Shown here piece after piece: positions 2,504 through 24,625 of a stretch of DNA of 64,000 nucleotides (position 1 is the stretch's first letter; each line of letters opens with the position of its first letter). This DNA is from Escherichia coli (GTDB lineage Bacteria; Pseudomonadota; Gammaproteobacteria; Enterobacterales; Enterobacteriaceae): assembly GCF_044324875.1 (NCBI RefSeq), contig NZ_CP172187.1, one strand, 5' to 3'. Under the pieces are notes generated by a model. It was not told where the DNA came from, ran no database searches, and was given only the letters and a program-made list of their open reading frames with translations. The position numbers and the translations under genes were made by a program.

Positions 2504-3221
2504 TCTCTCCGGTTCCCCCTGAGCGGGGGAATTTCACTGGCACTTATTGCGGGGAACAAAACCATCGGACGGGGGAAACATCTGTATTTCTGTGTGTCCT
2601 GGTGTAATACGGTGGATTTGTGTGTGTCTGGAAGCTTAATGCTAATGTATGCGTACATTAGCATTAAGCCTGTTTTCCCGTCGTGTCGGGGTCAGTCTGG
2701 GAAACGTACAATATTGTGTGTTTCTTGCTGTAGGGGAACGAGGTAACGTTTACACACTCGCGAGTGAGCGGATGAAATAATATCTCATTCAGTACTCTTT
2801 TTATCTGCTGCCGTTTTTTCCGGTGATTTTTTTTCTGCATACAGAAAAAAAGCCTGCCCGGAGGGCAGGCATGAAAGACAATCGCACAGTCAGTGTTGAA
2901 ATTAATGATGTCACGCATTTTCCCGGCGGATACACAAACCATCCCGGCCAGTACCGGCGGCATCGTAATCAACGTCTGCGGGCTGTGCAATGCTCTTTTT
3001 GCTGATTTAAGATAAAGTTATTACAGCCCCTGACGGAGACGAAAACAACGGCAGACAATATACGGGAAATATAATCAGACCGTTTTAATATTATTTCCAG
3101 GAACGCGACGAAGTCAGGCAGATTTATATATTTCTGGCCGGGCTGACATTCCGGATTGGTGTATATAATAATACGTTTGTGATATATTTATAATCGGTTT
3201 TATTATGTTGCCGGGGTATTT

Positions 3222-3643
3222 ATGGCCAGGAATCAGGAAAAGAAAACGCCCGTCATTGTGGTGAAAAAACGTCGCGTTATTTCACCTCCTGTCGTCGATA
3301 AAACAGAGACTGTCATTCCGCCTGTACCGGAAGTGGCGGTACCACCGGCAGCTGCTGATGCGCAGCTGCCAGCCCCCATCCCGGATGCGTCTCCTGCGCC
3401 TGCTGCCGTCGGAAAGAAAAGGAAAGGAAGACCACCACGCAGGCCCCTCAGAGAGCACTGGACACGGGAGTTCACCGACCAGTGCATGGAAAAGGTCAAG
3501 GCAATTTTCCCGCATCTTCGCGCTGAAGGCGGCGGTTTTCTGCCTCTCAGGGTCGGTATCTCCCGCGATATTACTGCCTGGCTGGCTGAGCACCCTGAAG
3601 CCGGACTCACCCGGGATGAATGGGACTGTGCCGTATCCTGTAT
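3222..3643 (+). pseudogene. ProQ/FinO-family RNA-chaperone gene, 5-prime part, interrupted by the Tn1721 left IR
   Basis: ORF runs into the IR at 3644; resumes in frame at 30015 with a FinO-like C-terminus. Confidence 0.6.
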
Positions 3644-3681
3644 GGGGGAACCGCAGAATTCGGAAAAAATCGTACGCTAAG
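3644..3681. repeat. Tn1721 terminal inverted repeat (left)
   Basis: GGGGGAACCGCAGAATTCGGAAAAAATCGTACGCTAAG. Confidence 0.8.
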
Positions 3682-3832
3682 CTAACGGTGTTCTCGTGAC
3701 AGCTCTTTGACTAGGCTTTCTAAGGCCATTCTGATAGCCCTGACTTCCTGAAAAGCCATGGCTAAAATTTGTGCGGCTAAAAGGGATAACCGATGGTAAA
3801 GTAAGTTATCCCTGTCGAGATACTGAAAAGCG

Positions 3833-5150
3833 TTATCCTCGTTTTTCCCAAAACTGTTTTGCCAGTTCGCTCAGAGCGCTAGTTAACTGAGCGACAGATT
3901 TCGCACTTTGCAAATTATTCTGCCCGGTCTGTACATTGGTATCAGCAGCATCGCGTATATTGATAATACTGCGGTTTATGTCTTCACTTACTGCTCCCTG
4001 CTGCTCGACCGCAGTCGCTATTTGCGCGTTCATGTCGGTAATTTCGTTAACGCGTTGGCCAATTCCATCAAGAGCTGTAGCTGCTTCCTCTGCGTGAGCT
4101 ACACTCGTGTGCGCTTGCCGACTACTTTGCTCCATGACTGTAACAGCGGATTGCGCTCGCTCTTGTAGAGCGCTGATCATGCTTTGAATATCCGTTGTCG
4201 ATTGCTGTGTGCGAGCAGCAAGACTGCGAACCTCATCGGCGACAACAGCAAAACCACGCCCCTGCTCACCAGCACGCGCGGCCTCAATTGCTGCGTTGAG
4301 TGCCAACAAATTCGTTTGCTCGGCGATCCCTCGTATAACGTCAAGAACTTTTGATATCTCGTTACTTTGACCTTCAAGCTCATGAATAACCTGAGTGGCT
4401 TGCCTAATTTCACCTTCAAGGGCAGTGATTGACTGGCTTGTGTGGGCTACCAGACGCTGGCCAGATGCCGTCTCAGTGTCTGCTCTTCCGGCCGCATCTG
4501 CAGCATGCTGTGCATTGCTCGCAACCTCTTGAATGCTTGCCACCATTTGGTTTACTGCCGTTGCTATTTGATCTGTCTCTGCCTGCTGCTCAACTGTAAG
4601 TACATTGCTTGACTCAATATCCTTTAGTAGGCCTCGGGTGTGTTCGCTAAGCCGATTTGATGCATCACCTATGCGACCTACTATGGCGCCTGTTTCAGCT
4701 TGCATCATTCGTAAAGCAAACTCTATTTGGCCAAACTCATCGGTGCGCCCAGTGTAGAGGGATTGACTTAATGGGTTATTGGAAATATTCCTGGCTCTTT
4801 CAACCAGTCTTCCAAGAGGAGAGAGAATAGCCAAAACACTAACAGAGCTTAAGCTTCCTGACATTAAAGTGGCTAACAATAAGCTGCTTATTGATGTATC
4901 AGTAAGCATGCCGGCAGCCATTGCGCTTGATATAATACTACCCCATATGAGCAAGAGTATTTTCACGGAAAAGCTAGCAGCCAATTTCGGCCTCGCGGCC
5001 TTCCCGCTTCTCAATTGAGCATATAATTTTTCCGCAGCCAAAACCTGCTCAGGTTCAGGCTTGGTCCTTACAGACTGGTATTCAACAATCGAACCATTCT
5101 TAGCTATTGGCGTTACATAAGCACTTACCCAATAGTGGTCGCCATTTTTA
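3833..5150 (-). pseudogene. mcp: Methyl-accepting chemotaxis protein gene of Tn1721 (mcp/orfI), 5-prime end truncated by IS1
   Basis: PAS-like region followed by MCP signalling domain ([31 protein letters not shown]); ORF abuts the IS1 end at 5151. Confidence 0.7.
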
Positions 5151-5165
5151 GGTAATGACTCCAAC

Positions 5166-5669
5166 TTATTGATAGTGTTTTATGTTCAGATAATGCCCGA
5201 TGACTTTGTCATGCAGCTCCACCGATTTTGAGAACGACAGCGACTTCCGTCCCAGCCGTGCCAGGTGCTGCCTCAGATTCAGGTTATGCCGCTCAATTCG
5301 CTGCGTATATCGCTTGCTGATTACGTGCAGCTTTCCCTTCAGGCGGGATTCATACAGCGGCCAGCCATCCGTCATCCATATCACCACGTCAAAGGGTGAC
5401 AGCAGGCTCATAAGACGCCCCAGCGTCGCCATAGTGCGTTCACCGAATACGTGCGCAACAACCGTCTTCCGGAGCCTGTCATACGCGTAAAACAGCCAGC
5501 GCTGGCGCGATTTAGCCCCGACATAGCCCCACTGTTCGTCCATTTCCGCGCAGACGATGACGTCACTGCCCGGCTGTATGCGCGAGGTTACCGACTGCGG
5601 CCTGAGTTTTTTAAGTGACGTAAAATCGTGTTGAGGCCAACGCCCATAATGCGGGCAGTTGCCCGGCAT
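5166..5669 (-). CDS. insB: IS1 InsB (transposase is made as InsAB by frameshifting)
   Basis: 167 aa ORF recognised as IS1 InsB. Confidence 0.9.
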
Positions 5670-5863
5670 CCAACGCCATTCATGGCCATATCAATGATTT
5701 TCTGGTGCGTACCGGGTTGAGAAGCGGTGTAAGTGAACTGCAGTTGCCATGTTTTACGGCAGTGAGAGCAGAGATAGCGCTGATGTCCGGCGGTGCTTTT
5801 GCCGTTACGCACCACCCCGTCAGTAGCTGAACAGGAGGGACAGCTGATAGAAACAGAAGCCAC
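5588..5863 (-). CDS. insA: IS1 InsA
   Basis: 91 aa, [42 protein letters not shown]... Confidence 0.9.
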
Positions 5864-6054
5864 TGGAGCACCTCAAAAACACCATCATACACTAAATCAG
5901 TAAGTTGGCAGCATCACCTAGGATTACAGGGGCATTCAGTTGAAAGGCGGCCCAGCCACTGGCATCACATACAGCGGATGTCACATTTGAACCGTCAATA
6001 CAAGCAATCACATTTGTCATCGTTTTATTCCTTTGTTGTTGTGTTGCTAATGGC

Positions 6055-6630
6055 TTAGTGACCAGACATCATTTTTTCAACTTCTTCTGGCTTATCGTGT
6101 ACCCCAAATTTATCGACTATGGTGGCACTGGCTTCGTTAAGGCCAATCAACTCAACCTCAGTCCCCTCGCGGCGGAATTTAATCACTACCTTGTCGAGGG
6201 CCGATACCGCGGTAATATCCCAAAAATGTGCTTGAGATAAGTCGATAGTCACTTTATCAACCACTTCCCTAAAATCGAATGAATTACTGAACTTATCTGA
6301 TGAAGCAAAAAAGACTTGTCCAATAACCTGATAATGGCGACCAGTGTCAGCAGCAGTCGTTGTACTCTTAACCACCATAAAACGTCCCACTTTATTAGCA
6401 AAAAATAGGGACGCGAGTAATACACCTACAAATACCCCAATTGCTAAGTTATGGGTAGCGACCACGACCACAACCGTCGCCACCATCACAAGGTTGGTTG
6501 ACATAGGATGATGCTTAAGATTACGGATTGAATCCCAAGAGAATGTACCGATAGCCACCATGATCATCACGGCAACCAGTGCCGCCATAGGAATAAGCTT
6601 TAACCACTCTCCTAAAAACACCACCATCAC
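6055..6630 (-). pseudogene. SulP-family anion transporter, C-terminal fragment (last TM helices and STAS domain)
   Basis: 191 aa; hydrophobic N-part then STAS-like tail; no N-terminal permease core upstream. Confidence 0.55.
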
Positions 6631-6775
6631 AAGTAAAAAAACGCCTGCAGCGAAGGATGATAAACGTCCGCGACCACCCGATTTAACGTTGATGATCGAA
6701 TGTCAATAAATTCAAAATTCAATCCTATCCTGACGCAATTTACACATGGCATCTGACATCAGGTTAGGGTATGCC

Positions 6776-7126
6776 TCAACCTGACGGCGGCGAATCACAA
6801 GCGTCCGGTTTGACGCTGGTTTCGGTCGCAGTGCTGGCCCGCGCCTGGAAGCGCTGATAGCACTCCAGCCCGCAGAAATGCTCCACGTACTCGGCCCCTT
6901 CCGGCGTGAAGGCGGCATCGAGCGGGATTTCCTTGCAGCACACGCAGCAACTGGTGCTCGGTTCATTGGCGTTCATGGTGGTGTTCCTCCATTGGTTGAC
7001 GAAGCCGACGAAGGCCGCCGCCGGCATCGGCCTGGCGAACAGGAAACCCTGCACCGTGTCGCAACCCGCCTGCCGCAACCACGCAAGGCAGTCGGGTGTT
7101 TCCACACCCTCGGCTACCACCTCCAT
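6776..7126 (-). pseudogene. tnpM: Tn21 urf2M, 3-prime part (EAL-domain tail plus tnpM portion), separated from its 5-prime part by the integron
   Basis: Translation starts immediately outside IRi: [46 protein letters not shown]... Confidence 0.65.
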
Positions 7127-7328
7127 TGTCGTTTTCAGAAGACGGCTGCACTGAACGTCAGAAGCCGACTGCACTATAGCAGCGGAGGGGTTGGATCCAT
7201 CAGGCAACGACGGGCTGCTGCCGGCCATCAGCGGACGCAGGGAGGACTTTCCGCAACCGGCCGTTCGATGCGGCACCGATGGCCTTCGCGCAGGGGTAGT
7301 GAATCCGCCAGGATTGACTTGCGCTGCC

Positions 7329-8342
7329 CTACCTCTCACTAGTGAGGGGCGGCAGCGCATCAAGCGGTGAGCGCACTCCGGCACCGCCAACTTTCAGCAC
7401 ATGCGTGTAAATCATCGTCGTAGAGACGTCGGAATGGCCGAGCAGATCCTGCACGGTTCGAATGTCGTAACCGCTGCGGAGCAAGGCCGTCGCGAACGAG
7501 TGGCGGAGGGTGTGCGGTGTGGCGGGCTTCGTGATGCCTGCTTGTTCTACGGCACGTTTGAAGGCGCGCTGAAAGGTCTGGTCATACATGTGATGGCGAC
7601 GCACGACACCGCTCCGTGGATCGGTCGAATGCGTGTGCTGCGCAAAAACCCAGAACCACGGCCAGGAATGCCCGGCGCGCGGATACTTCCGCTCAAGGGC
7701 GTCGGGAAGCGCAACGCCGCTGCGGCCCTCGGCCTGGTCCTTCAGCCACCATGCCCGTGCACGCGACAGCTGCTCGCGCAGGCTGGGTGCCAAGCTCTCG
7801 GGTAACATCAAGGCCCGATCCTTGGAGCCCTTGCCCTCCCGCACGATGATCGTGCCGTGATCGAAATCCAGATCCTTGACCCGCAGTTGCAAACCCTCAC
7901 TGATCCGCATGCCCGTTCCATACAGAAGCTGGGCGAACAAACGATGCTCGCCTTCCAGAAAACCGAGGATGCGAACCACTTCATCCGGGGTCAGCACCAC
8001 CGGCAAGCGCCGCGACGGCCGAGGTCTTCCGATCTCCTGAAGCCAGGGCAGATCCGTGCACAGCACCTTGCCGTAGAAGAACAGCAAGGCCGCCAATGCC
8101 TGACGATGCGTGGAGACCGAAACCTTGCGCTCGTTCGCCAGCCAGGACAGAAATGCCTCGACTTCGCTGCTGCCCAAGGTTGCCGGGTGACGCACACCGT
8201 GGAAACGGATGAAGGCACGAACCCAGTGGACATAAGCCTGTTCGGTTCGTAAGCTGTAATGCAAGTAGCGTATGCGCTCACGCAACTGGTCCAGAACCTT
8301 GACCGAACGCAGCGGTGGTAACGGCGCAGTGGCGGTTTTCAT
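7329..8342 (-). CDS. intI1: Class 1 integron integrase IntI1
   Basis: 337 aa tyrosine recombinase recognised as IntI1 ([41 protein letters not shown]...). Confidence 0.95.
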
Positions 8343-8498
8343 GGCTTGTTATGACTGTTTTTTTGTACAGTCTATGCCTCGGGCATCCAAGCAGCAAGCG
8401 CGTTACGCCGTGGGTCGATGTTTGATGTTATGGAGCAGCAACGATGTTACGCAGCAGGGCAGTCGCCCTAAAACAAAGTTAACCTCTGAGGAAGAATT

Positions 8499-8972
8499 GT
8501 GAAACTATCACTAATGGTAGCTATATCGAAGAATGGAGTTATCGGGAATGGCCCTGATATTCCATGGAGTGCCAAAGGTGAACAGCTCCTGTTTAAAGCT
8601 ATTACCTATAACCAATGGCTGTTGGTTGGACGCAAGACTTTTGAATCAATGGGAGCATTACCCAACCGAAAGTATGCGGTCGTAACACGTTCAAGTTTTA
8701 CATCTGACAATGAGAACGTAGTGATCTTTCCATCAATTAAAGATGCTTTAACCAACCTAAAGAAAATAACGGATCATGTCATTGTTTCAGGTGGTGGGGA
8801 GATATACAAAAGCCTGATCGATCAAGTAGATACACTACATATATCTACAATAGACATCGAGCCGGAAGGTGATGTTTACTTTCCTGAAATCCCCAGCAAT
8901 TTTAGGCCAGTTTTTACCCAAGACTTCGCCTCTAACATAAATTATAGTTACCAAATCTGGCAAAAGGGTTAA
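8499..8972 (+). CDS. dfrA1: Trimethoprim-resistant dihydrofolate reductase cassette, DfrA1 type
   Basis: 157 aa matching DfrA1 as remembered ([42 protein letters not shown]...); first cassette after attI1. Confidence 0.85.
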
Positions 8973-9064
8973 CAAGTGGCAGCAACGGATTCGCAAACCT
9001 GTCACGCCTTTTGTACCAAAAGCCGCGCCAGGTTTGCGATCCGCTGTGCCAGGCGTTAAACATC

Positions 9065-10019: not shown

Positions 10020-10367
10020 ATGAAAGGCTGGCTTTTTCTTGTTATCGCAATAGTTGGCGAAGTAATCGCAACATCCGCATTAAAATCTAGCGAGGGCTTT
10101 ACTAAGCTTGCCCCTTCCGCCGTTGTCATAATCGGTTATGGCATCGCATTTTATTTTCTTTCTCTGGTTCTGAAATCCATCCCTGTCGGTGTTGCTTATG
10201 CAGTCTGGTCGGGACTCGGCGTCGTCATAATTACAGCCATTGCCTGGTTGCTTCATGGGCAAAAGCTTGATGCGTGGGGCTTTGTAGGTATGGGGCTCAT
10301 AATTGCTGCCTTTTTGCTCGCCCGATCCCCATCGTGGAAGTCGCTGCGGAGGCCGACGCCATGGTGA
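10020..10367 (+). CDS. qacEdelta1: QacEdelta1 small multidrug resistance efflux protein (3-prime conserved segment)
   Basis: 115 aa [27 protein letters not shown]...; overlaps sul1 start. Confidence 0.9.
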
Positions 10368-11200
10368 CGGTGTTCGGCATTCTGAATCTCACCGAGGACT
10401 CCTTCTTCGATGAGAGCCGGCGGCTAGACCCCGCCGGCGCTGTCACCGCGGCGATCGAAATGCTGCGAGTCGGATCAGACGTCGTGGATGTCGGACCGGC
10501 CGCCAGCCATCCGGACGCGAGGCCTGTATCGCCGGCCGATGAGATCAGACGTATTGCGCCGCTCTTAGACGCCCTGTCCGATCAGATGCACCGTGTTTCA
10601 ATCGACAGCTTCCAACCGGAAACCCAGCGCTATGCGCTCAAGCGCGGCGTGGGCTACCTGAACGATATCCAAGGATTTCCTGACCCTGCGCTCTATCCCG
10701 ATATTGCTGAGGCGGACTGCAGGCTGGTGGTTATGCACTCAGCGCAGCGGGATGGCATCGCCACCCGCACCGGTCACCTTCGACCCGAAGACGCGCTCGA
10801 CGAGATTGTGCGGTTCTTCGAGGCGCGGGTTTCCGCCTTGCGACGGAGCGGGGTCGCTGCCGACCGGCTCATCCTCGATCCGGGGATGGGATTTTTCTTG
10901 AGCCCCGCACCGGAAACATCGCTGCACGTGCTGTCGAACCTTCAAAAGCTGAAGTCGGCGTTGGGGCTTCCGCTATTGGTCTCGGTGTCGCGGAAATCCT
11001 TCTTGGGCGCCACCGTTGGCCTTCCTGTAAAGGATCTGGGTCCAGCGAGCCTTGCGGCGGAACTTCACGCGATCGGCAATGGCGCTGACTACGTCCGCAC
11101 CCACGCGCCTGGAGATCTGCGAAGCGCAATCACCTTCTCGGAAACCCTCGCGAAATTTCGCAGTCGCGACGCCAGAGACCGAGGGTTAGATCATGCCTAG
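10361..11200 (+). CDS. sul1: Sulfonamide-resistant dihydropteroate synthase Sul1
   Basis: [55 protein letters not shown]...; track ORF has an upstream extension. Confidence 0.9.
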
Positions 11201-11327
11201 CATTCACCTTCCGGCCGCCCGCTAGCGGACCCTGGTCAGGTTCCGCGAAGGTGGGCGCAGACATGCTGGGCTCGTCAGGATCAAACTGCACTATGAGGCG
11301 GCGGTTCATACCGCGCCAGGGGAGCGA

Positions 11328-11828
11328 ATGGACAGCGAGGAGCCTCCGAACGTTCGGGTCGCCTGCTCGGGTGATATCGACGAGGTTGTGCGGCTGATGC
11401 ACGACGCTGCGGCGTGGATGTCCGCCAAGGGAACGCCCGCCTGGGACGTCGCGCGGATCGACCGGACATTCGCGGAGACCTTCGTCCTGAGATCCGAGCT
11501 CCTAGTCGCGAGTTGCAGCGACGGCATCGTCGGCTGTTGCACCTTGTCGGCCGAGGATCCCGAGTTCTGGCCCGACGCCCTCAAGGGGGAGGCCGCATAT
11601 CTGCACAAGCTCGCGGTGCGACGGACACATGCGGGCCGGGGTGTCAGCTCCGCGCTGATCGAGGCTTGCCGCCATGCCGCGCGAACGCAGGGGTGCGCCA
11701 AGCTGCGGCTCGACTGCCACCCGAACCTGCGTGGCCTATACGAGCGGCTCGGATTCACCCACGTCGACACTTTCAATCCCGGCTGGGATCCAACCTTCAT
11801 CGCAGAACGCCTAGAACTCGAAATCTAA
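11328..11828 (+). CDS. orf5: GNAT-family acetyltransferase orf5 of the 3-prime conserved segment
   Basis: 166 aa, recognised as orf5 of class 1 integron 3-prime CS. Confidence 0.8.
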   Translation: MDSEEPPNVRVACSGDIDEVVRLMHDAAAWMSAKGTPAWDVARIDRTFAETFVLRSELLVASCSDGIVGCCTLSAEDPEFWPDALKGEAAYLHKLAVRRTHAGRGVSSALIEACRHAARTQGCAKLRLDCHPNLRGLYERLGFTHVDTFNPGWDPTFIAERLELEI

Positions 11829-12395
11829 CGTCCGTTCGGGCATCGAGGTCCATGTCGGGGTGGGACGGGCCCGTGGCTTCAAGATCACTTGCAGTCCGAC
11901 CGCGATGTCTTGGTTGCGCGAGAGGTTGTCGACAATCACCAGCATGCGCACGCCGACCTTGCGCAGCAGTGCCAGAGCCAGTTGCTCCATTTCCGGCAAC
12001 CGTGGGCGTGGGCGCAGCGGCGCGCCCATCGCGGCGAGCAGCGCGACGTAGAAGCGGATCACGGACGGCTCGGACGGCATCTGCACGACCAACACCGGGA
12101 TGTGCTCCTGGTCGGCGTCGGAGCTGGCCGGGTGGGTGCGGCGGAACTTCTCGACGATCATCGACTTGCCATTGTTGGTCGGGCCAACCAGCAGCAGGTT
12201 GGGCATGCGTTGCTTGTTTGGCCACGCATAAAGGGCTTCCAGCCGGTTCAGCGCCTCGACTGCGCGCGGATAGCCGATCCAGCGGTCGGCGCGAAGGCGC
12301 TGGATGCGCTCGTCCGCCGGAAGACGGGCCAAGCCCTGGGCCGCCGGCAGCAGGTGGGACAGGTCGATGATGGGATATTCGTCCACGGCTACCAC
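11811..12395 (-). pseudogene. tniB: tniB-delta (truncated Tn402 NTP-binding transposition protein)
   Basis: Walker A motif LLLVGPTNNGKS; C-terminal part missing; directly abuts orf5 with no IS1326/IS1353 between. Confidence 0.75.
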
Positions 12396-14068
12396 TCCTC
12401 AATCTGGTCGAACGGTTTGGCGGGTGGCAAGTTGTCTGCCTGCGGGTCGGCAATATCCGTATCCGGCGGAACGGGCTTGTCCGGCCGAGCTGATGTCTTG
12501 AGGTGCTGGCGGCGATCCGCGTCACGCCGCGCCTTGCGTGTGGCCTTCTGCGCGCTGGTCACAATCTCACGCATCTGGCCGATCATGCGGAACAGCGCCG
12601 ACTCATCCACCTGTTCGCGCCCTTGCTGCCGCAGTTTCGCCAGCGCCTGCCGTTGTTCCCAGAGGGTGACAGCCGGATGCGACAAGGTACGGTAGGGAAT
12701 TTCCAGGTAATGCTGTCCCTCCGGTTCCAGGACCCAGATACGGCTGATGTCGCGCGGATCGCGCCGGATCAGAAAGGACGGCCAGCGTTCACGCCGCGCA
12801 ATCCACGGCTTGAGCGCATCGGCGTAGTAGTGGATGTGGTCGATGACAAAGCCGGTGCGGGTCAGCGTGCGCCGGAGGATCGGCAGAAAATCGACCAGGA
12901 ACGAAGTAGCGCGTGTGACGACGGCCGGTACGCCGACACGCGCCACGGCCTCGGCCCAGCGCGCGGCCGGCGGTTGGAGCAGGCCGTTGTGCACCGAACC
13001 GTGGTAGGTGCCGACCGCCAATGTGAGCCAGCGCTCTAGCTCGCGCAGCGTCAGGGCGGCCTTGTTTTCGGAATCGTAGTCGCCGCGCTGGTCAGGGTTG
13101 GAGAAGGTCGTTCCCGGCAGTTCGTCGTGAATCATCTGCATCGCCGTGCCGATGATCCGTTCCACGATGCCGCCATAGTGCGGCTGTCCCAGCGGGCGAT
13201 AGTCCAGCCGGATGCCATGCTGCTCGCAACCCCGGCGCAGGGCCTCGCTCTTGAACTCGGCCGCGTTGTCTAGGTAGAGCAGCAAGGGCTTGCCGCTCAT
13301 CTGCCAATCCATTTCCACGTTCAGTCCTTCCAGCCAAGGGCGCTTGTCGCAGGCGACATGCACGAGGCACAGGCCAACCGAAACGGCAGACGGCGCTTCC
13401 AGCGTGACGACCATGCCGAGCACGCAGCGGGTGAACACGTCGATGGCGAGGGTCAGGTACGGGCGGCCAATAGGTTGCCGGTCGCGGTCATCGACCACGA
13501 TCAGGTCGATGACCGTATGGTCTATCTGCACCTGCTCCAGCGGCGCGGTCACGGCAGGAGGCTCGCCGCCCACACCTTGTAGGTCACGAGCGGCATCCTG
13601 GCCTTCCCGCCGGCGGATGACCTTGCGCGGGTCAAGGCTAGCGATCCGTAAGGCCACGGTATTGCGCGCCGGCACTCGCAGTTTTTGAGCCTTGCACACC
13701 TGAGTGACTTCGCGGTGAAAGGCCGCTAGGCTGCGCTTCTGCTTGGTCAGGAACCGCTTTTGCAGTAGCTCGTGGATGACGCGCTCGACCGGTTCCGGCA
13801 AGCGCCCCTTACCTTTACCTCCACCGGACTGGCCGGGCACCAGATCCGTCACGAGGCCGCTGCCTTGCCGGGCACGCCGGATCAGAACGTATACCTGGCG
13901 CCGAGACAAGCCCAGCGCCTGAGCCGCCATATCGGCCGCTTCGTGCCCGACCGTCTCCGACTGCGCCAACGGACTGATGATCTCCGCACGACGGCGCGCA
14001 CGCTCCCAAGCCTCATCAGGCAGAGTGGCCACGCCTTGTTCTGGAATCCGTGGGGTGTCCGTCGCCAT
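12389..14068 (-). CDS. tniA: Tn402-family transposase TniA
   Basis: 559 aa from MATDTPRIPEQ...; DDE transposase; adjacent to IRt. Confidence 0.85.
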   Translation of the reverse strand: MATDTPRIPEQGVATLPDEAWERARRRAEIISPLAQSETVGHEAADMAAQALGLSRRQVYVLIRRARQGSGLVTDLVPGQSGGGKGKGRLPEPVERVIHELLQKRFLTKQKRSLAAFHREVTQVCKAQKLRVPARNTVALRIASLDPRKVIRRREGQDAARDLQGVGGEPPAVTAPLEQVQIDHTVIDLIVVDDRDRQPIGRPYLTLAIDVFTRCVLGMVVTLEAPSAVSVGLCLVHVACDKRPWLEGLNVEMDWQMSGKPLLLYLDNAAEFKSEALRRGCEQHGIRLDYRPLGQPHYGGIVERIIGTAMQMIHDELPGTTFSNPDQRGDYDSENKAALTLRELERWLTLAVGTYHGSVHNGLLQPPAARWAEAVARVGVPAVVTRATSFLVDFLPILRRTLTRTGFVIDHIHYYADALKPWIARRERWPSFLIRRDPRDISRIWVLEPEGQHYLEIPYRTLSHPAVTLWEQRQALAKLRQQGREQVDESALFRMIGQMREIVTSAQKATRKARRDADRRQHLKTSARPDKPVPPDTDIADPQADNLPPAKPFDQIEEW

Positions 14069-14142
14069 GCTCACCTCGCTTTGGTGCACACGAGTATTGA
14101 GCATAGTCGAGATTGGTGCAGATCACTTCTGATATTGAACTG

Positions 14143-14850
14143 TCAGGAGCTGGCTGCACAACAGCCATTACGCCCAATCAACTGGTGCAGTCGTCTTCTG
14201 AAAATGACATCCATGCCCAGCCCGTGCGCGAGCTGGATCACCGCCCGCACGATAGTTTGGTCACGGGCATCATCCGGGAGCCTGGCGACAAAGGATTGGT
14301 CGATTTTCAATGTGGTGATGGGGCAGCATTTCAGATGTTGCAGGCAGGAATAGCCGGTGCCGAAGTCGTCGGCGGCGAAGCGCACGCCGATGGCGCGCAA
14401 GGCGTCGAAACTGGCGAACAGGGCTGGATTGCCGAATGCGACCGATTCGGTCAGTTCGATCTCCAGAAGCTCGGCGGGCAGGGCCATATCGGCCAGCACC
14501 CGCTTTACCTCGTCGTCGAACGTTGGCCCAACCTGGCTGGCGGACACATTGATGGCAAGACGGAACGGTTGCCATGCCGGTCCTTGCCACTTGTGCATCT
14601 GGCGACAGGCCTCGCCCAGCACCCACGCGCCTATTTCCGGCATCAGGCCGAACGACTCGGCCAGCGGCAGGAACTGGCCGGGCGGCAACAGGCCAAGCCT
14701 CGGATGCCGCCAGCGCATCAACGCTTCCGCGCCAGCGATCCGGTGATCGCGCAGATCGACCAGCGGCTGGTAATGCAGGTCAAGCTGTCCGCGCGCCGCC
14801 GCCTGCGCCAACTCGGCCGCCGTCCATCCGGCGGGCTGCGAACTCGTCAT
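14143..14850 (-). pseudogene. urf2: Tn21 urf2 (EAL-domain protein), 5-prime part, reading through IRt
   Basis: [33 protein letters not shown]... EAL-domain N-part; continues at 7126 on the other side of the integron. Confidence 0.7.
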
Positions 14851-15083
14851 GATCCGCCCCGGAAGGCGCGCAGCAGCCGCGTTACGGCCAGAACGAACAA
14901 GCCGGTCAGCGCGAGCGCGGCAACACCCCAATGCTCGCCAAGGAAGGCACCGGCGGTCGTCCCGGCCAGCACGGCGGCGAGAATCGGCAGATGGCAGGGG
15001 CAGGTCAACACGGCCAGCGCACCCCACAGGTAGCCGGAAACGGGTTGGCGCGTCTCGGGCGGCAGTTTGTCAGGGGCGTTCAC
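14847..15083 (-). CDS. merE: Mercury resistance protein MerE (GTG start)
   Basis: 78 aa (M/V)[34 protein letters not shown]... Confidence 0.8.
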
Positions 15084-15442
15084 GGCAATGCCTCCTCGTG
15101 CGCCCGCTCGGCTGGCATGGAGGCCAGTTGCGCGTCCAGATGGGCCAACGCCGCGCGCCGCCGCTCGACCAACTGGCGCAGCACGGCAAGCTGCGCTGCG
15201 GCTTGTGCGCCGTCCGCTGCGTCGAGCGCACGGCACAGCCGCGCCAGGGCATCCAGGCCGATACCCGCCTCGAAGGCCGCGCGCACGAAGCACAGCCGTT
15301 GCAAGGCCGCATCGTCGAACACGCCGTAGCCGCCCGTGGTGCAGGCCACCGGCCGTAACAAGCCGCGCACCAGGTAGTCGCGCACGATATGTACGCTCAC
15401 CCCAACGTTATGGGCCAGTTGCGATACCGTGTAGGCGCTCAT
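15080..15442 (-). CDS. merD: MerD co-regulator
   Basis: [29 protein letters not shown]... MerR-like HTH. Confidence 0.85.
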
Positions 15443-15459
15443 CGCACACCTCCTTGTCC

Positions 15460-17205
<1,746 letters not shown>

Positions 17206-17628
17206 TCACAAGCGCTTGGCGGGGAGTTCGCAGCCGTCCGGTCCGCAACGGCGATGCGCCGGCGACACGAAGTCCCAGATCGACACCCCAATCATCAAGG
17301 CCAGGCCGACGTACATCAGGTTCGCCGTCCACCAGTTGCCGAGCAGCCAGACCGTGGCCGCAAACACGATGGCCGGGCCGATCATGCCGAGCAGACTGCG
17401 CAGCCATTGCCGATGACTGAACCAACCCAGCGCGTTCGCCAGGAAGGCCAGCGCGGCAAACAGCGGCAGCAGGCGGCTGATGAACAGTCCCTCGTACTGG
17501 CTCAAGAAGCCCAGCCCGATGGCCGCGCCGAAGCTGGCGAGGGCTGGAAAGCAGGCGGCGCAGCCCATCGCGGAAACGACGCTGCCGAGCGCGCCGGTTT
17601 TATCGGCAATGCGTGTCATCAGTCCCAT
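17206..17628 (-). CDS. merC: Mercury transporter MerC
   Basis: MGLMTRIADKTGALGSVVSAMGCAACFPALASFGAAIGLGFL... Confidence 0.85.
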   Translation of the reverse strand: MGLMTRIADKTGALGSVVSAMGCAACFPALASFGAAIGLGFLSQYEGLFISRLLPLFAALAFLANALGWFSHRQWLRSLLGMIGPAIVFAATVWLLGNWWTANLMYVGLALMIGVSIWDFVSPAHRRCGPDGCELPAKRL

Positions 17629-17663
17629 GAAGCGGCTCTCGCTGTTGTCGTTGGCTTGCTGGC

Positions 17664-17939
17664 TCACTGCTTGACGCTGGACGGATAGCCGGCGTCTGCG
17701 GTGGCCTTGGTCAGCTTCTGTACGCTGGCCTTGGTGTCGTCAAAAGTGACGACGGCCTCGCGCTTCTCGAAGCCCACATCGACCTTGCTCACGCCTTCGA
17801 CCTTGGAGAGCGCTTTCTTGACTGTGATCGGGCAGGCGGCGCAAGTCATGCCGGGAACCGCTAGCGTGACGGTCTGGGTAGCGGCCCACACCGGGGCAAC
17901 AGCGGCGGCGAGGGCAAGGGAGGCAAACAGTTTCTTCAT
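17664..17939 (-). CDS. merP: Periplasmic mercury-binding protein MerP
   Basis: 91 aa with signal peptide and GMTCAACP motif. Confidence 0.9.
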   Translation of the reverse strand: MKKLFASLALAAAVAPVWAATQTVTLAVPGMTCAACPITVKKALSKVEGVSKVDVGFEKREAVVTFDDTKASVQKLTKATADAGYPSSVKQ

Positions 17940-17952
17940 GATGAACTCCTGG

Positions 17953-18303
17953 TTAATAGAAAAATGGAACGACATAGGGAAATCCAAGCGCGACCAGGAC
18001 CAGCACGGCCACGATCCAGAAAATCAGCTTGTAGGTGGCGCGCACCTGCGGAATCGCGCAGACCTCACCTGGCTTGCATGCCTGCACGGGCCGGTAAATC
18101 CGCTTCCAGGCGAAGAACAGCGCCACTAGCGCCGCGCCGATGAACAACGGTCGATAGGGTTCCAGCACCGTCAGGTTGCCGATCCAAGCACCGGAGAAGC
18201 CCAGGGCGACCAGTACTAGCGGCCCCAGGCAGCAGGTCGATGCAAGAATGGCGGCCAGCCCGCCGGCGAAGAGCGCACCGCGCCCGTTTTGTGGTTCAGA
18301 CAT
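17953..18303 (-). CDS. merT: Mercury transporter MerT
   Basis: [36 protein letters not shown]... Confidence 0.9.
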
Positions 18304-18374
18304 ACGTTGGCCCTTTTGAATTTGGATTGGATAGCGTAACCTTACTTCCGTACTCATGTACGGAGTCAAGCGAT

Positions 18375-18809
18375 ATGGAAAATAATTTGGAAAACCTGAC
18401 CATTGGCGTTTTTGCCAAGGCGGCCGGGGTCAACGTGGAGACAATCCGCTTCTATCAGCGCAAGGGCCTGTTGCGGGAACCGGACAAGCCTTACGGCAGC
18501 ATCCGCCGCTATGGGGAGGCGGACGTGGTTCGGGTGAAATTCGTGAAATCGGCACAGCGGCTGGGGTTCAGTCTGGACGAGATTGCCGAGCTGTTGCGGC
18601 TCGACGATGGCACCCACTGCGAGGAGGCCAGCAGCCTGGCCGAACACAAGCTCAAGGACGTGCGCGAGAAGATGGCCGACTTGGCGCGCATGGAAACCGT
18701 GCTGTCTGAACTCGTGTGCGCCTGCCATGCACGAAAGGGGAATGTTTCCTGCCCGTTGATCGCGTCACTACAGGGCGAAGCAGGCCTGGCAAGGTCAGCT
18801 ATGCCTTAG
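18375..18809 (+). CDS. merR: Mercury-responsive regulator MerR (divergent from merTPCADE)
   Basis: 144 aa [33 protein letters not shown]... Confidence 0.9.
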
Positions 18810-18842
18810 CGTGCTTTATTTTCCGTTTTCTGAGGTGCCCCC
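18805..18842. repeat. Tn21 terminal inverted repeat (mer end)
   Basis: Reverse complement of GGGGGCACCTCAGAAAACGGAAAATAAAGCACGCTAAG. Confidence 0.8.
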
Positions 18843-19560
18843 TAATTGAGCATTTCCAGGCGCTTGCGCCTGGTCAACGAAAGAGTCAGCGCCGTAGGCG
18901 CTGCCATTTTTGGGGTGAGGCCGTTCGCGGCCGAGGGGCGCAGCCCCTGGGGGGATGGGAGGCCCGCGTTAGCGGGCCGGGAGGGTTCGAGAAGGGGGGG
19001 CACCCCCCTTCGGCGTGCGCGGTCACGCGCACAGGGCGCAGCCCTGGTTAAAAACAAGGTTTATAAATATTGGTTTAAAAGCAGGTTAAAAGACAGGTTA
19101 GCGGTGGCCGAAAAACGGGCGGAAACCCTTGCAAATGCTGGATTTTCTGCCTGTGGACAGCCCCTCAAATGTCAATAGGTGCGCCCCTCATCTGTCAGCA
19201 CTCTGCCCCTCAAGTGTCAAGGATCGCGCCCCTCATCTGTCAGTGAGGGCCAAGTTTTCCGCGAGGTATCCACAACGCCGGCGGCCGCGGTGTCTCGCAC
19301 ACGGCTTCGACGGCGTTTCTGGCGCGTTTGCAGGGCCATAGACGGCCGCCAGCCCAGCGGCGAGGGCAACCAGCCCGGTGAGCGTCGGAAAGGCGCTGGA
19401 AGCCCCGTAGCGACGCGGAGAGGGGCGAGACAAGCCAAGGGCGCAGGCTCGATGCGCAGCACGACATAGCCGGTTCTCGCAAGGACGAGAATTTCCCTGC
19501 GGTGCCCCTCAAGTGTCAATGAAAGTTTCCAACGCGAGCCATTCGCGAGAGCCTTGAGTC
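18843..19560. other. IncP-1alpha (RK2/RP4)-type oriV segment: GC-rich block, AT-rich block, DnaA box and 17-bp iterons
   Basis: Iterons CCCCTCAAATGTCAATA / CCCCTCATCTGTCAGCA / CCCCTCAAGTGTCAAGG / CCCCTCATCTGTCAGTG at 19160-19260 plus one near 19505; TGTGGACAG DnaA box at ~19150; no trfA in window. Confidence 0.7.
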
Positions 19561-19869
19561 CACGCTAGATCTATCTCATCTGCGCAAGGCAGAACGTGAA
19601 GACGGCCGCCCTGGACCTCGCCCGCGAGCGCCAGGCGCACGAGGCCGGCGCGCGGACCCGCGCCACGGCCCACGAGCGGACGCCGCAGCAGGAGCGCCAG
19701 AAGGCCGCCAGAGAGGCCGAGCGCGGCCGTGAGGCTTGGACGCTAGGGCAGGGCATGAAAAAGCCCGTAGCGGGCTGCTACGGGCGTCTGACGCGGTGGA
19801 AAGGGGGAGGGGATGTTGTCTACATGGCTCTGCTGTAGTGAGTGGGTTGCGCTCCGGCAGCGGTCCTGA

Positions 19870-20520
19870 TCAATCGTCACCCTTTCTCGGTCCTTCAACG
19901 TTCCTGACAACGAGCCTCCTTTTCGCCAATCCATCGACAATCACCGCGAGTCCCTGCTCGAACGCTGCGTCCGGACCGGCTTCGTCGAAGGCGTCTATCG
20001 CGGCCCGCAACAGCGGCGAGAGCGGAGCCTGTTCAACGGTGCCGCCGCGCTCGCCGGCATCGCTGTCGCCGGCCTGCTCCTCAAGCACGGCCCCAACAGT
20101 GAAGTAGCTGATTGTCATCAGCGCATTGACGGCGTCCCCGGCCGAAAAACCCGCCTCGCAGAGGAAGCGAAGCTGCGCGTCGGCCGTTTCCATCTGCGGT
20201 GCGCCCGGTCGCGTGCCGGCATGGATGCGCGCGCCATCGCGGTAGGCGAGCAGCGCCTGCCTGAAGCTGCGGGCATTCCCGATCAGAAATGAGCGCCAGT
20301 CGTCGTCGGCTCTCGGCACCGAATGCGTATGATTCTCCGCCAGCATGGCTTCGGCCAGTGCGTCGAGCAGCGCCCGCTTGTTCCTGAAGTGCCAGTAAAG
20401 CGCCGGCTGCTGAACCCCCAACCGTTCCGCCAGTTTGCGTGTCGTCAGACCGTCTACGCCGACCTCGTTCAACAGGTCCAGGGCGGCACGGATCACTGTA
20501 TTCGGCTGCAACTTTGTCAT
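19870..20520 (-). CDS. tetR: Tetracycline repressor TetR(A)
   Basis: MTKLQPNTVIRAALDLLNEVGVDGLTTRKLAERLGVQQPALYWHF...; divergent from tetA. Confidence 0.9.
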   Translation of the reverse strand: MTKLQPNTVIRAALDLLNEVGVDGLTTRKLAERLGVQQPALYWHFRNKRALLDALAEAMLAENHTHSVPRADDDWRSFLIGNARSFRQALLAYRDGARIHAGTRPGAPQMETADAQLRFLCEAGFSAGDAVNALMTISYFTVGAVLEEQAGDSDAGERGGTVEQAPLSPLLRAAIDAFDEAGPDAAFEQGLAVIVDGLAKRRLVVRNVEGPRKGDD

Positions 20521-20625
20521 GCTTGACACTTTATCACTGATAAACATAATATGTCCACCAACTTATCAGTGATAAAGAATCCGCGCGTTCAATCGGACCA
20601 GCGGAGGCTGGTCCGGAGGCCAGAC

Positions 20626-21825
20626 GTGAAACCCAACAGACCCCTGATCGTAATTCTGAGCACTGTCGCGCTCGACGCTGTCGGCATCGGCCTGATTATG
20701 CCGGTGCTGCCGGGCCTCCTGCGCGATCTGGTTCACTCGAACGACGTCACCGCCCACTATGGCATTCTGCTGGCGCTGTATGCGTTGATGCAATTTGCCT
20801 GCGCACCTGTGCTGGGCGCGCTGTCGGATCGTTTCGGGCGGCGGCCGGTCTTGCTCGTCTCGCTGGCCGGCGCTGCTGTCGACTACGCCATCATGGCGAC
20901 GGCGCCTTTCCTTTGGGTTCTCTATATCGGGCGGATCGTGGCCGGCATCACCGGGGCGACTGGGGCGGTAGCCGGCGCTTATATTGCCGATATCACTGAT
21001 GGCGATGAGCGCGCGCGGCACTTCGGCTTCATGAGCGCCTGTTTCGGGTTCGGGATGGTCGCGGGACCTGTGCTCGGTGGGCTGATGGGCGGTTTCTCCC
21101 CCCACGCTCCGTTCTTCGCCGCGGCAGCCTTGAACGGCCTCAATTTCCTGACGGGCTGTTTCCTTTTGCCGGAGTCGCACAAAGGCGAACGCCGGCCGTT
21201 ACGCCGGGAGGCTCTCAACCCGCTCGCTTCGTTCCGGTGGGCCCGGGGCATGACCGTCGTCGCCGCCCTGATGGCGGTCTTCTTCATCATGCAACTTGTC
21301 GGACAGGTGCCGGCCGCGCTTTGGGTCATTTTCGGCGAGGATCGCTTTCACTGGGACGCGACCACGATCGGCATTTCGCTTGCCGCATTTGGCATTCTGC
21401 ATTCACTCGCCCAGGCAATGATCACCGGCCCTGTAGCCGCCCGGCTCGGCGAAAGGCGGGCACTCATGCTCGGAATGATTGCCGACGGCACAGGCTACAT
21501 CCTGCTTGCCTTCGCGACACGGGGATGGATGGCGTTCCCGATCATGGTCCTGCTTGCTTCGGGTGGCATCGGAATGCCGGCGCTGCAAGCAATGTTGTCC
21601 AGGCAGGTGGATGAGGAACGTCAGGGGCAGCTGCAAGGCTCACTGGCGGCGCTCACCAGCCTGACCTCGATCGTCGGACCCCTCCTCTTCACGGCGATCT
21701 ATGCGGCTTCTATAACAACGTGGAACGGGTGGGCATGGATTGCAGGCGCTGCCCTCTACTTGCTCTGCCTGCCGGCGCTGCGTCGCGGGCTTTGGAGCGG
21801 CGCAGGGCAACGAGCCGATCGCTGA
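20626..21825 (+). CDS. tetA: Tetracycline efflux MFS transporter TetA(A) (GTG start)
   Basis: 399 aa, (M/V)KPNRPLIVILSTVALDAVGIGLIMPVLPGLLRDL... Confidence 0.9.
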   Translation: MKPNRPLIVILSTVALDAVGIGLIMPVLPGLLRDLVHSNDVTAHYGILLALYALMQFACAPVLGALSDRFGRRPVLLVSLAGAAVDYAIMATAPFLWVLYIGRIVAGITGATGAVAGAYIADITDGDERARHFGFMSACFGFGMVAGPVLGGLMGGFSPHAPFFAAAALNGLNFLTGCFLLPESHKGERRPLRREALNPLASFRWARGMTVVAALMAVFFIMQLVGQVPAALWVIFGEDRFHWDATTIGISLAAFGILHSLAQAMITGPVAARLGERRALMLGMIADGTGYILLAFATRGWMAFPIMVLLASGGIGMPALQAMLSRQVDEERQGQLQGSLAALTSLTSIVGPLLFTAIYAASITTWNGWAWIAGAALYLLCLPALRRGLWSGAGQRADR

Positions 21826-21856
21826 TCGTGGAAACGATAGGCCTATGCCATGCGGG

Positions 21857-22639
21857 TCAAGGCGACTTCCGGCAAGCTATACGCGCCCTAGGAGTGCGGT
21901 TGGAACGTTGGCCCAGCCAGATACTCCCGATCACGAGCAGGACGCCGATGATTTGAAGCGCACTCAGCGTCTGATCCAAGAACAACCATCCTAGCAACAC
22001 GGCGGTCCCCGGGCTGAGAAAGCCCAGTAAGGAAACAACTGTAGGTTCGAGTCGCGAGATCCCCCGGAACCAAAGGAAGTAGGTTAAACCCGCTCCGATC
22101 AGGCCGAGCCACGCCAGGCCGAGAACATTGGTTCCTGTAGGCATCGGGATTGGCGGATCAAACACTAAAGCTACTGGAACGAGCAGAAGTCCTCCGGCCG
22201 CCAGTTGCCAGGCGGTAAAGGTGAGCAGAGGCACGGGAGGTTGCCACTTGCGGGTCAGCACGGTTCCGAACGCCATGGAAACCGCCCCCGCCAGGCCCGC
22301 TGCGACGCCGACAGGATCTAGCGCTGCGTTTGGTGTCAACACCAACAGCGCCACGCCCGCAGTTCCGCAAATAGCCCCCAGGACCGCCATCAATCGTATC
22401 GGGCTACCTAGCAGAGCGGCAGAGATGAACACGACCATCAGCGGCTGCACAGCGCCTACCGTCGCCGCGACCCCGCCCGGCAGGCGGTAGACCGAAATAA
22501 ACAACAAGCTCCAGAATAGCGAAATATTAAGTGCGCCGAGGATGAAGATGCGCATCCACCAGATTCCCGTTGGAATCTGTCGGACGATCATCACGAGCAA
22601 TAAACCCGCCGGCAACGCCCGCAGCATCGCGACCGTCAT
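21857..22639 (-). CDS. pecM: EamA-family (PecM-like) transporter of the Tn1721 tet module
   Basis: 260 aa polytopic membrane protein; position after tetA as in Tn1721; start lies 76 bp from the Tn2/Tn3 IR. Confidence 0.7.
   Translation of the reverse strand: MTVAMLRALPAGLLLVMIVRQIPTGIWWMRIFILGALNISLFWSLLFISVYRLPGGVAATVGAVQPLMVVFISAALLGSPIRLMAVLGAICGTAGVALLVLTPNAALDPVGVAAGLAGAVSMAFGTVLTRKWQPPVPLLTFTAWQLAAGGLLLVPVALVFDPPIPMPTGTNVLGLAWLGLIGAGLTYFLWFRGISRLEPTVVSLLGFLSPGTAVLLGWLFLDQTLSALQIIGVLLVIGSIWLGQRSNRTPRARIACRKSP

Positions 22640-22861: not shown

Positions 22862-23734
<873 letters not shown>

Positions 23735-23904: not shown

Positions 23905-24625
<721 letters not shown>

What the first reader, a model, noticed from the sequence alone, without database searches (positions are those of the whole stretch)
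5151..6776. IS1 joins unrelated sequences: truncated mcp on one side, orphan SulP tail and a Tn21 lacking tnpA/tnpR on the other
The 9 bp flanking IS1 differ (CCATTTTTA vs TAGGATTAC), so this copy marks a deletion or recombination junction rather than a simple insertion. Left is Tn1721 mcp missing its 5-prime end; right is only the C-terminal 190 aa of a SulP transporter, then the Tn21 urf2M tail with no tnpR or tnpA. The Tn21 and Tn1721 transposition modules are therefore missing, leaving the island dependent on the outer Tn1721 IRs and a transposase in trans.
Basis: seen in the sequence. Interest (0 to 1): 0.35.

Follow-up and report, generated by a model that had tools for sequence, protein, structure and literature searches.

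The report
IS1 deletion scar in resistance island
This is an ordinary scar left by an IS1 insertion sequence that deleted about 10.7 kb inside a widespread plasmid antibiotic-resistance island, and a surviving relative shows what was lost.

Summary
IS1 (768 bp, window 5151-5918) lies between unrelated DNA, with different 9-bp flanks. To its left is Tn1721 mcp, missing its first 260 bp. To its right are 781 bp from a 7.9-kb Tn3-family transposon ("TnX", my working label). Tn21 then starts at 6700, not 6776. That point is inside res, 50 bp upstream of where tnpR would begin. No Tn21 or Tn1721 tnpR or complete tnpA occurs anywhere in the window.

A related plasmid from E. coli CH4804 keeps the older layout: mcp|IS1-catA1-ybjA-Tn21 tnpA-tnpR-[TnX remnant]-Tn21 res. 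Its IS1-to-tnpR stretch is 100% identical to R100. So this IS1 sits where the IS1 of the R100 resistance determinant (Tn2670) sits. The usual form arose by an IS1 adjacent deletion of 10,661 bp. The sulP|Tn21 junction is older than that deletion and did not involve IS1.

The window carries one further change not found in either collection searched. Another 189 bp of mcp are gone, and the IS1 is the chromosomal IS1A isoform rather than IS1B.

This is a known kind of structure and of low interest.

The parts
3644..3681 (+). Tn1721 left inverted repeat (38 bp), preceded by the 5-bp target duplication TGTAT (3639-3643)
3833..5150 (-). Tn1721 mcp (orfI) lacking its first 260 bp. The open frame runs 14 nt into IS1 (to 5164), giving a 443-aa ORF that has HAMP and MCPsignal domains but no PAS domain.
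5151..5918 (-). IS1, 768 bp, intact (insA 5588-5863, insB 5166-5669, A6C frameshift motif). It is 100% identical to the chromosomal E. coli IS1A isoform. It differs at 6 positions (373, 376, 465, 468, 471, 507) from the IS1B copy at this place in related plasmids and in R100.
5919..6020 (-). First 102 nt (34 codons) of the TnX universal-stress-protein gene, cut by IS1
6021..6054 (-). TnX sulP-usp intergenic spacer
6055..6699 (-). Last 645 nt of TnX sulP (nt 847-1491, 214 aa): the tail of the Sulfate_transp domain plus the STAS domain. It is a pseudogene. The whole stretch 5919-6699 is 100% identical to TnX.
6700..6786 (-). Tn21 res remnant. The inferred crossover site res I (about 6757-6786, centre TAT at 6770-6772) and the adjacent accessory sequence are kept. 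The 49 bp nearest tnpR are lost. The first 11 nt of this part overlap the 3' end of tnpM.
6776..7126 (-). Tn21 tnpM (3' part of urf2M: end of an EAL domain plus DUF3330)
7127..7151 (+). IRi of the class 1 integron. Identity to the pFBAOT6 integron starts at 7127. intI1 is at 7329-8342 on the minus strand, followed by dfrA1-aadA1.
   Evidence: for the sequence and the integron match; the IRi consensus itself is from my memory
18805..18842 (-). Tn21 IRmer, the only Tn21 terminal repeat in the window
29977..30014 (-). Tn1721 right inverted repeat, followed by the 5-bp duplication TGTAT

Best explanation
The interval is a scar from serial rearrangements inside a Tn1721-bounded multiresistance island built from Tn1721, the R100-type resistance determinant (Tn2670: IS1-catA1-ybjA-Tn21) and Tn21. 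It is not a functional unit.

Step 1 (shown by comparison). In an ancestor like the CH4804 plasmid, the outer end of the Tn2670 IS1 abutted Tn1721 mcp 71 bp inside the gene. Tn1721 res, tnpR and the 5' part of tnpA were already gone.

Step 2 (shown by comparison; mechanism unknown). A 7.9-kb Tn3-family transposon, TnX, left a remnant in a 39-bp gap of Tn21 between tnpR and res. TnX carries sulP-usp-dksA/traR, a resolvase gene, phd-parE and tnpA. This event produced the blunt sulP|Tn21-res joint at 6699/6700.

Step 3 (inferred from nested end points). The resident IS1 stayed in place and made an adjacent deletion of 10,661 bp to its right. That removed catA1, ybjA, Tn21 IRtnp-tnpA-tnpR and most of the TnX remnant, and it ended at usp nt 102. 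This is the common form. A 9,387-bp version exists in pPSS-10_1.

Step 4 (window-specific; inferred). A further 189 bp of mcp were lost on the left, and the element now reads as IS1A. The likeliest route is insertion of a chromosomal IS1A 189 bp further into mcp, followed by IS1A x IS1B homologous recombination. An adjacent deletion plus gene conversion would give the same product.

Result. The 26.4-kb island (3644-30014) keeps both Tn1721 IRs but no cognate transposase or resolvase, and only an incomplete Tn21 res. It can move only if a compatible Tn21-subgroup transposase is supplied in trans, or by recombination.
For: - IS1 limits and differing flanks.
- Ancestral-like layout in CH4804 plasmid L025. 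Its positions 10486-16320 are 100% identical to R100 21992-16158 (IS1-catA1-ybjA-Tn21 tnpA-tnpR). Positions 22696 onward match R100 from 16118 down, which leaves a 39-bp gap filled by 6,375 bp that include TnX coordinates 6302-1343.
- The window equals L025 minus 10297-10485 and minus 11254-21914 in this region.
- The same left junction, TGAGGGGAG|IS1, occurs in L001, L002, L003 and L016. Their right flanks are TAGGATTAC (TnX coordinate 2126) or GTATTGACG (TnX coordinate 3400).
- The sulP|Tn21 joint is also present where IS26 truncates the TnX remnant.
- TnX is a real transposon: 7,940 bp, about 43-bp terminal IRs, perfect 5-bp duplications at 3 of 6 complete copies, and copies at different sites, including the Shewanella sp. 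W3-18-1 chromosome.
- Frequency: 90 plasmid records cover the usp-sulP-Tn21 stretch, and 48 E. coli genomes carry the IS1|usp joint.
- The window's left joint is absent from both collections. Its IS1 is 100% IS1A, while the listed relatives carry IS1B, with 6 mismatches.
- Sibling plasmid p135-2 has the same backbone site and target duplication but the common IS1B form.
- No Tn21 or Tn1721 tnpR or full tnpA in the window.
- A Tn1721 backbone interrupted by a Tn2670-derived Tn21 with catA1-IS1 is described for R1215 (PMC4899885).
Against: - CH4804 is not the direct ancestor. Its integron has aadA1 only and carries IS1326, and it sits at another backbone site. The order of events is therefore inferred from shared junctions.
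- An adjacent deletion leaves no signature beyond the joint itself, so step 3 cannot be told apart from IS1 x IS1 recombination with a second, now lost, IS1 copy.
- The mechanism of the blunt sulP|res joint is unknown.
- The IS1A reading could be an artefact of short-read polishing, because E. coli chromosomes carry many IS1A copies. That would leave only the 189-bp loss as real.
- Mobility in trans was not tested.
Confidence: 0.85

Rival explanations
1. IS1 x IS1 homologous recombination, rather than IS1 transposase-driven adjacent deletion, made the right-hand joint. A second IS1 inserted in usp, and recombination with the Tn2670 IS1 removed the 10.7 kb between them.
For: IS1 copies at this place do recombine or get replaced: the window has the IS1A isoform, p1 of A134_1EC has a mosaic, 5'-truncated IS1 with fosA, and pPK8277 has an IS1A 7 bp from the window's mcp joint.
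Against: No record found keeps two IS1 copies flanking the deleted stretch. The common form carries the same IS1B sequence as R100, so no second isoform is visible. Two different right end points from one fixed left joint are what adjacent deletions typically give.
Confidence: 0.2
2. The truncation of Tn21 at res is a product of resolvase-mediated site-specific recombination between Tn21 res and another res site.
For: res-site hybrids do occur in this family. pSA186_MCR1 joins Tn1721 mcp to Tn21 tnpM exactly at the centre of res I.
Against: The break at 6699/6700 is about 70 bp from the res I centre (6770-6772). The partner sequence is the middle of the sulP coding region, nt 847 of 1491, not a res site.
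Confidence: 0.03
3. The window-specific features (189-bp loss, IS1A sequence) are assembly or polishing artefacts, and the plasmid really has the common form.
For: The left joint and the IS1A-plus-usp combination are found in no other record. IS1A is present in many copies per E. coli chromosome, which is the situation in which repeat consensus errors arise.
Against: A clean 189-bp loss ending exactly at the IS1 terminus is what IS1 activity produces. An independent IS1A lies 7 bp away in pPK8277, showing that this A+T-rich spot is a real IS1 target.
Confidence: 0.1
4. A simple IS1 insertion whose 9-bp duplication has decayed.
For: None beyond the presence of an intact IS1.
Against: The flanks belong to different elements. 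The left is 100% Tn1721 and the right is 100% TnX. No record shows them contiguous.
Confidence: 0.01

Closest known systems
Tn2670, the resistance determinant of NR1/R100 (IS1-catA1-ybjA-Tn21)
   Same: In the CH4804 relative, the IS1 next to mcp and the following 5.8 kb (catA1, ybjA, Tn21 IRtnp, tnpA, tnpR) are 100% identical to R100. The window's IS1 occupies that position.
   Different: In the window catA1, ybjA and the Tn21 tnp module are deleted, and the second IS1 of Tn2670 is absent. The flank of Tn21 IRmer is not the R100 one. The IS1 isoform is IS1A, not the R100 type.
Resistance island of IncM plasmid R1215, progenitor of the Acinetobacter AbaR0/AbGRI2 regions (Blackwell, Hamidian and Hall 2016, PMC4899885)
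   Same: A region bounded by Tn1721 remnants with tetA(A) at the right end, a truncated orfI (mcp) at the left, and a Tn21-type transposon whose tnp end runs into the Tn2670 catA1-IS1 configuration.
   Different: R1215 has a Tn21-Tn1696 hybrid with different cassettes. Its IS1 is cut by Tn1, and orfI is cut by IS26. No TnX remnant is reported there. I did not compare the sequences directly.
IS1-mediated adjacent deletions (classical IS1 behaviour; from my own knowledge)
   Same: The IS stays in place, one flank is kept, the other flank is replaced by more distant DNA, there is no 9-bp duplication, and nested end points occur in relatives.
   Different: The mechanism is inferred from end products only. 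The isoform change in the window needs an extra recombination or conversion step.
Tn1403-type Tn3-family transposons (backbone tnpA-tnpR-res-sup-uspA-dksA-yjiK; PMC6399125, PMC5620268)
   Same: The same trio of passenger genes: sulfate permease, universal stress protein, DksA-like.
   Different: TnX has a different gene order, with the passenger genes on the far side of a divergently placed resolvase gene. It carries a phd-parE pair, and PGAP gives it only the generic label 'Tn3 family transposase'. I did not compare TnX and Tn1403 sequences, and I found no published name for TnX.

Membership tests
IS1 | 768-bp element with IS1 terminal inverted repeats | tested here: met
   5151-5918; 100% identical over 768 bp to copies annotated as IS1A in many E. 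coli chromosomes
IS1 | insA and insB' frames with the A6C -1 frameshift site | tested here: met
   Pfam Zn_ribbon_InsA, HTH_Tnp_IS1 and DDE_Tnp_IS1; TTAAAAAAC at element position 305
IS1 | 9-bp target duplication (mark of a simple insertion, not of family membership) | tested here: not met
   CCATTTTTA versus TAGGATTAC
Tn1721 | 38-bp terminal inverted repeats with a 5-bp target duplication | tested here: met
   3644-3681 and 29977-30014, each flanked by TGTAT
Tn1721 | Own res, tnpR and full tnpA (the Tn1722 module), and the third internal IR | tested here: not met
   Only the 3' tnpA remnant at 28226-29909 matches. Only two IR copies are found with up to 3 mismatches.
Tn1721 | tetR-tet(A) module | tested here: met
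   Window 19202-22714 is 99.9% identical to the annotated tetR-tet(A)-EamA stretch of L025
Tn21 | Both 38-bp terminal repeats (IRtnp and IRmer) | tested here: not met
   Only IRmer at 18805-18842
Tn21 | tnpA, tnpR and complete res | tested here: not met
   No tnpR or tnpA in 64 kb. res is cut 50 bp upstream of the tnpR start, so 76 of 125 bp are kept.
Tn21 | tnpM / class 1 integron / urf2-mer operon backbone | tested here: met
   100% match from 6700 to typical Tn21 records. Annotation of near-identical loci shows intI1 through merR.
SulP anion transporter | Full Sulfate_transp membrane domain plus C-terminal STAS domain | tested here: not met
   The fragment has only profile positions 305-378 of 380 of Sulfate_transp, plus STAS. 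The intact TnX gene (496 aa) has both domains.
Tn3-family transposon (TnX) | Terminal IRs, 5-bp duplication, DDE_Tnp_Tn3 transposase and a serine resolvase | tested here: met
   Met for complete copies in related loci. The window holds only an internal 781-bp fragment with none of these features.

The most novel reading that the evidence does not exclude
The TnX remnant lies in a 39-bp gap inside Tn21 res. This could mean that this unnamed, toxin-antitoxin-carrying Tn3-family transposon entered Tn21 by targeting its res site, or by one-ended transposition that ended inside sulP. In that case the blunt sulP|res joint would be a primary transposition product rather than a later deletion.
Probability: 0.1. 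Interest if true: 0.35.

Novelty: already known. Interest (0 to 1): 0.15.

Why it matters
The practical value is modest.

- The sulP|Tn21-res joint and the mcp|IS1|usp joints are exact molecular signatures. They mark one lineage of a Tn21-derived island that carries trimethoprim, streptomycin, sulfonamide, mercury and tetracycline resistance. This lineage has spread across IncF, IncHI1, IncHI2, IncI and IncK-type plasmids and into chromosomes.
- The comparison ties that lineage back to the R100-type resistance determinant from the 1950s.
- It also shows that the island has lost every transposition gene of its own.

No new biology is implied.

Tried and rejected
- **Published description of this scar.** Four full-text searches (Tn1721/Tn21/sulP/IS1; sulP/usp/Tn3/Shewanella; Tn1721/Tn21/IS1/mcp/dfrA1; Tn2670/Tn1721) found no paper that describes it. 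They did find the R1215 paper and the Tn1403 backbone.
- **Name for TnX.** The Tn3-family toxin-antitoxin survey (PMC7157771) does not list it. PGAP gives only 'Tn3 family transposase'.
- **pFBAOT6 as a full Tn1721 reference.** It gave the mcp-res-tnpR stretch, but its tet side is absent. I therefore did not map the region between Tn21 IRmer and tetR against a reference.
- **Rogowsky et al. 1985 on Tn21/Tn1721 res sites (PMC554474).** The paper is not held. The sub-site limits are therefore my own reading of the dyad symmetries and of one natural res hybrid. Only the general three-sub-site rule is cited (PMC13367494).
- **Rejected explanations.** A simple insertion, resolvase-made truncation, and an IS1 composite transposon (only one IS1 is in the window).

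Full report
**What is in the sequence**

Window 5151-5918 is a complete 768-bp IS1, the only copy in the 64 kb. Its flanks are CCATTTTTA on the left and TAGGATTAC on the right, so there is no 9-bp duplication. The element is intact. The insA and insB frames give full Pfam matches and the TTAAAAAAC frameshift motif is present.

**Left flank**

Window 3644-5150 is 100% identical to the left end of Tn1721 as carried by pFBAOT6. It starts with the 38-bp IR at 3644-3681. The mcp gene reads on the minus strand towards that IR. The full gene is 1578 bp (525 aa, with PAS, HAMP and MCPsignal domains), as in pFBAOT6 and pSA186_MCR1. Here 1318 bp remain, so the first 260 bp and most of the PAS domain are gone. 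The open frame continues 14 nt into IS1, which gives a 443-aa ORF.

**Right flank**

Positions 5919-6699 are 100% identical to an internal piece of a 7,940-bp Tn3-family transposon, which I call TnX as a working label.

- Complete copies of TnX carry sulP (496 aa), usp (284 aa), a DksA/TraR zinc-finger gene, a serine resolvase gene on the other strand, phd-parE, and a 1026-aa Tn3-type transposase gene.
- They end in repeats of about 43 bp that begin GGCTAAATTTGCCC. Three of six complete copies have perfect 5-bp duplications.
- They sit at different places in the Shewanella sp. W3-18-1 chromosome, an Enterobacter chromosome (two copies) and many plasmids.

The window keeps usp nt 1-102 (5919-6020), the 34-bp spacer, and sulP nt 847-1491 (6055-6699). 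The sulP piece encodes 214 aa: the tail of the membrane domain plus STAS. So IS1 abuts usp, not sulP. I found no published name for TnX. Tn1403-type transposons carry the same trio of passenger genes.

**Tn21 breakpoint**

Typical Tn21 records match at 100% from 6700 onward. Against a Tn21 with annotated tnpR, 6700 lies 50 bp upstream of the tnpR start codon. So 76 bp of the 125-bp tnpR-tnpM interval survive and the 49 bp nearest tnpR are lost. TnX identity stops at 6699 and Tn21 identity starts at 6700, with no shared bases.

The surviving part contains the dyad CATCAGGTTAGGG-TAT-GCCTCAACCTGACG at about 6757-6786. This is where a natural Tn1721/Tn21 res hybrid in pSA186_MCR1 switches parent, so I take it to be res I. 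In the Tn3 family, res has three sub-sites and strand exchange occurs at the centre of site I (PMC13367494). The exact sub-site limits here are my inference. The break is about 70 bp from that centre, so a resolvase did not make it.

**What is missing**

BLAST of the Tn1721 res-tnpR-tnpA stretch and of the Tn21 tnpR-tnpA-IRtnp stretch against the whole window finds only two things. One is the 3' tnpA remnant at 28226-29909, which is a normal part of the right end of Tn1721. The other is the Tn21 IRmer at 18805-18842.

The island 3644-30014 is bounded by the two Tn1721 IRs and flanked by TGTAT on both sides.

**How the scar arose**

The key relative is a plasmid of E. coli CH4804, NZ_JBRBPR010000002.1. 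Its gene order is:

- Tn1721 IRL - mcp | IS1 - catA1 - ybjA - Tn21 tnpA - tnpR
- then an IS1380-family fragment, a di-iron protein gene, and a truncated TnX (part of tnpA, parE, phd, resolvase gene, dksA, usp, partial sulP)
- then | Tn21 res - tnpM - integron - mer - tetR - tet(A).

From the outer end of IS1 to 10 bp upstream of tnpR, it is 100% identical to R100 over 5,835 bp. Tn21 then resumes at the same base as in the window. This leaves a 39-bp gap in Tn21, filled by 6,375 bp.

Two conclusions follow. The IS1 next to mcp sits where the IS1 of the R100 resistance determinant (Tn2670) sits. And the sulP|res joint predates the IS1 deletion and is independent of it. Two further plasmids agree, because IS26 rather than IS1 truncates the TnX remnant in them.

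Relative to CH4804, the common form lacks 10,661 bp immediately to the right of IS1. pPSS-10_1 has the same left joint but a shorter loss of 9,387 bp, ending 98 bp beyond dksA. One fixed IS1 end with nested end points on the other side is the expected outcome of IS1 adjacent deletions. That mechanism is inferred, not shown.

The common form is frequent. Ninety plasmid records cover the usp-sulP-Tn21 stretch, at least 39 cover mcp-IS1-usp-sulP-Tn21-intI1, and 48 E. coli genomes carry the IS1|usp joint. They include IncF, IncHI1, IncHI2, IncI and IncK-type plasmids as well as chromosomes.

**What is particular to the window**

In all the relatives I read, IS1 is preceded by TGAGGGGAG, 71 bp inside mcp. 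In the window the joint lies 189 bp further into mcp. A query spanning this joint finds no identical record in 72,556 plasmids or 5,426 E. coli genomes.

The window's IS1 also differs at six positions from the IS1B copy in the relatives and in R100. It is 100% identical to the IS1A isoform that is common in E. coli chromosomes. No other record combines IS1A with the usp joint.

Sibling plasmid p135-2 has the same backbone, insertion site and Tn2 position, but the common IS1B form. The change therefore happened in this plasmid lineage. Possible routes are:

- Insertion of an IS1A 189 bp to the left, then IS1A x IS1B recombination with the crossover to the right of position 507.
- An adjacent deletion plus gene conversion.
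- A double crossover with another replicon.

The end product cannot separate these. The spot is a real IS1 target, since pPK8277 has an independent IS1A 7 bp away. Short-read polishing could also have overwritten the IS1B bases, which I cannot check.

**Mobility**

Islands carrying the mcp|IS1|usp scar have perfect 5-bp duplications at three different sites: TGTAT, GCTTA and TTTAA. This fits movement through the Tn1721 IRs with a helper transposase.

However, pSA186_MCR1 shares the TTTAA site with pSEN110055 and has a different interior. So interior exchange by homologous recombination must also occur. The trans-mobilisation idea stays an inference.

From memory, Tn21-subgroup transposases cross-complement in part. 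If so, the intact Tn21 tnpA of the CH4804-type ancestor could have served.

**Comparison with what is known**

A Tn1721 backbone interrupted near the tet module by a Tn21-type transposon, whose tnp end runs into the Tn2670 catA1-IS1 configuration, is described for R1215, isolated in or before 1980 (PMC4899885). IS1 adjacent deletions are classical. The structure is therefore a known kind, common in databases, and ordinary.

**Verdict**

Interest is low.

Noticed in passing
window 22715-27664: Tn2/Tn3-type transposon with blaTEM-1, flanked by a 5-bp duplication (GTGAA). It is inserted in the EamA/pecM gene of the Tn1721 tet module. Sibling plasmid p135-2 has the same position, while pE203449_106 has its copy elsewhere.
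   Followed up: partly
window 18843-19300: Directly outside Tn21 IRmer lies a G+C-rich stretch with repeated TGTCA...CCCCTCA motifs. I recall these as IncP (RK2) oriV-type iterons. CH4804 has about 175 bp more here. The flank differs from the R100 flank of IRmer, so this Tn21 is not at the R100 site.
   Followed up: partly
L020 (pSA186_MCR1) 6560-6760: Tn1721 mcp is joined to Tn21 tnpM by a head-to-head hybrid of the two res I sites. The left half of Tn1721 res I is fused to the reverse complement of the left half of Tn21 res I, switching at the central TAT. Formally this is a deletion between inverted res sites, which resolvases are not expected to make.
   Followed up: partly
L025 (CH4804 plasmid) 16321-22695: The insert in the 39-bp gap of Tn21 res holds the TnX remnant plus an IS1380-family transposase fragment and an oxygen-binding di-iron protein gene. 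These cut the TnX tnpA at TnX coordinate 6302. Their origin was not traced.
   Followed up: no
L027 (p1 of E. coli A134_1EC) 2870-4419: At the same IS1|usp joint, a mosaic IS1 lacking its first ~19 bp is preceded by fosA and a fragment of a substrate-binding protein gene. This is another rearrangement at this spot.
   Followed up: partly
L019 (pPK8277-98kb) 7294-8061: An IS1A lies 7 bp from the window's mcp joint and is joined on its other side to ybjA-Tn21 tnpA, with catA1 lost. This is an independent IS1 event in the same A+T-rich stretch of mcp.
   Followed up: partly
window 8495-9054 and 11929-11932: Compared with CH4804, the window's integron has an extra dfrA1 cassette and lacks IS1326 together with part of tniB. 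p135-2 has a 111-bp deletion in intI1 that the window lacks.
   Followed up: no
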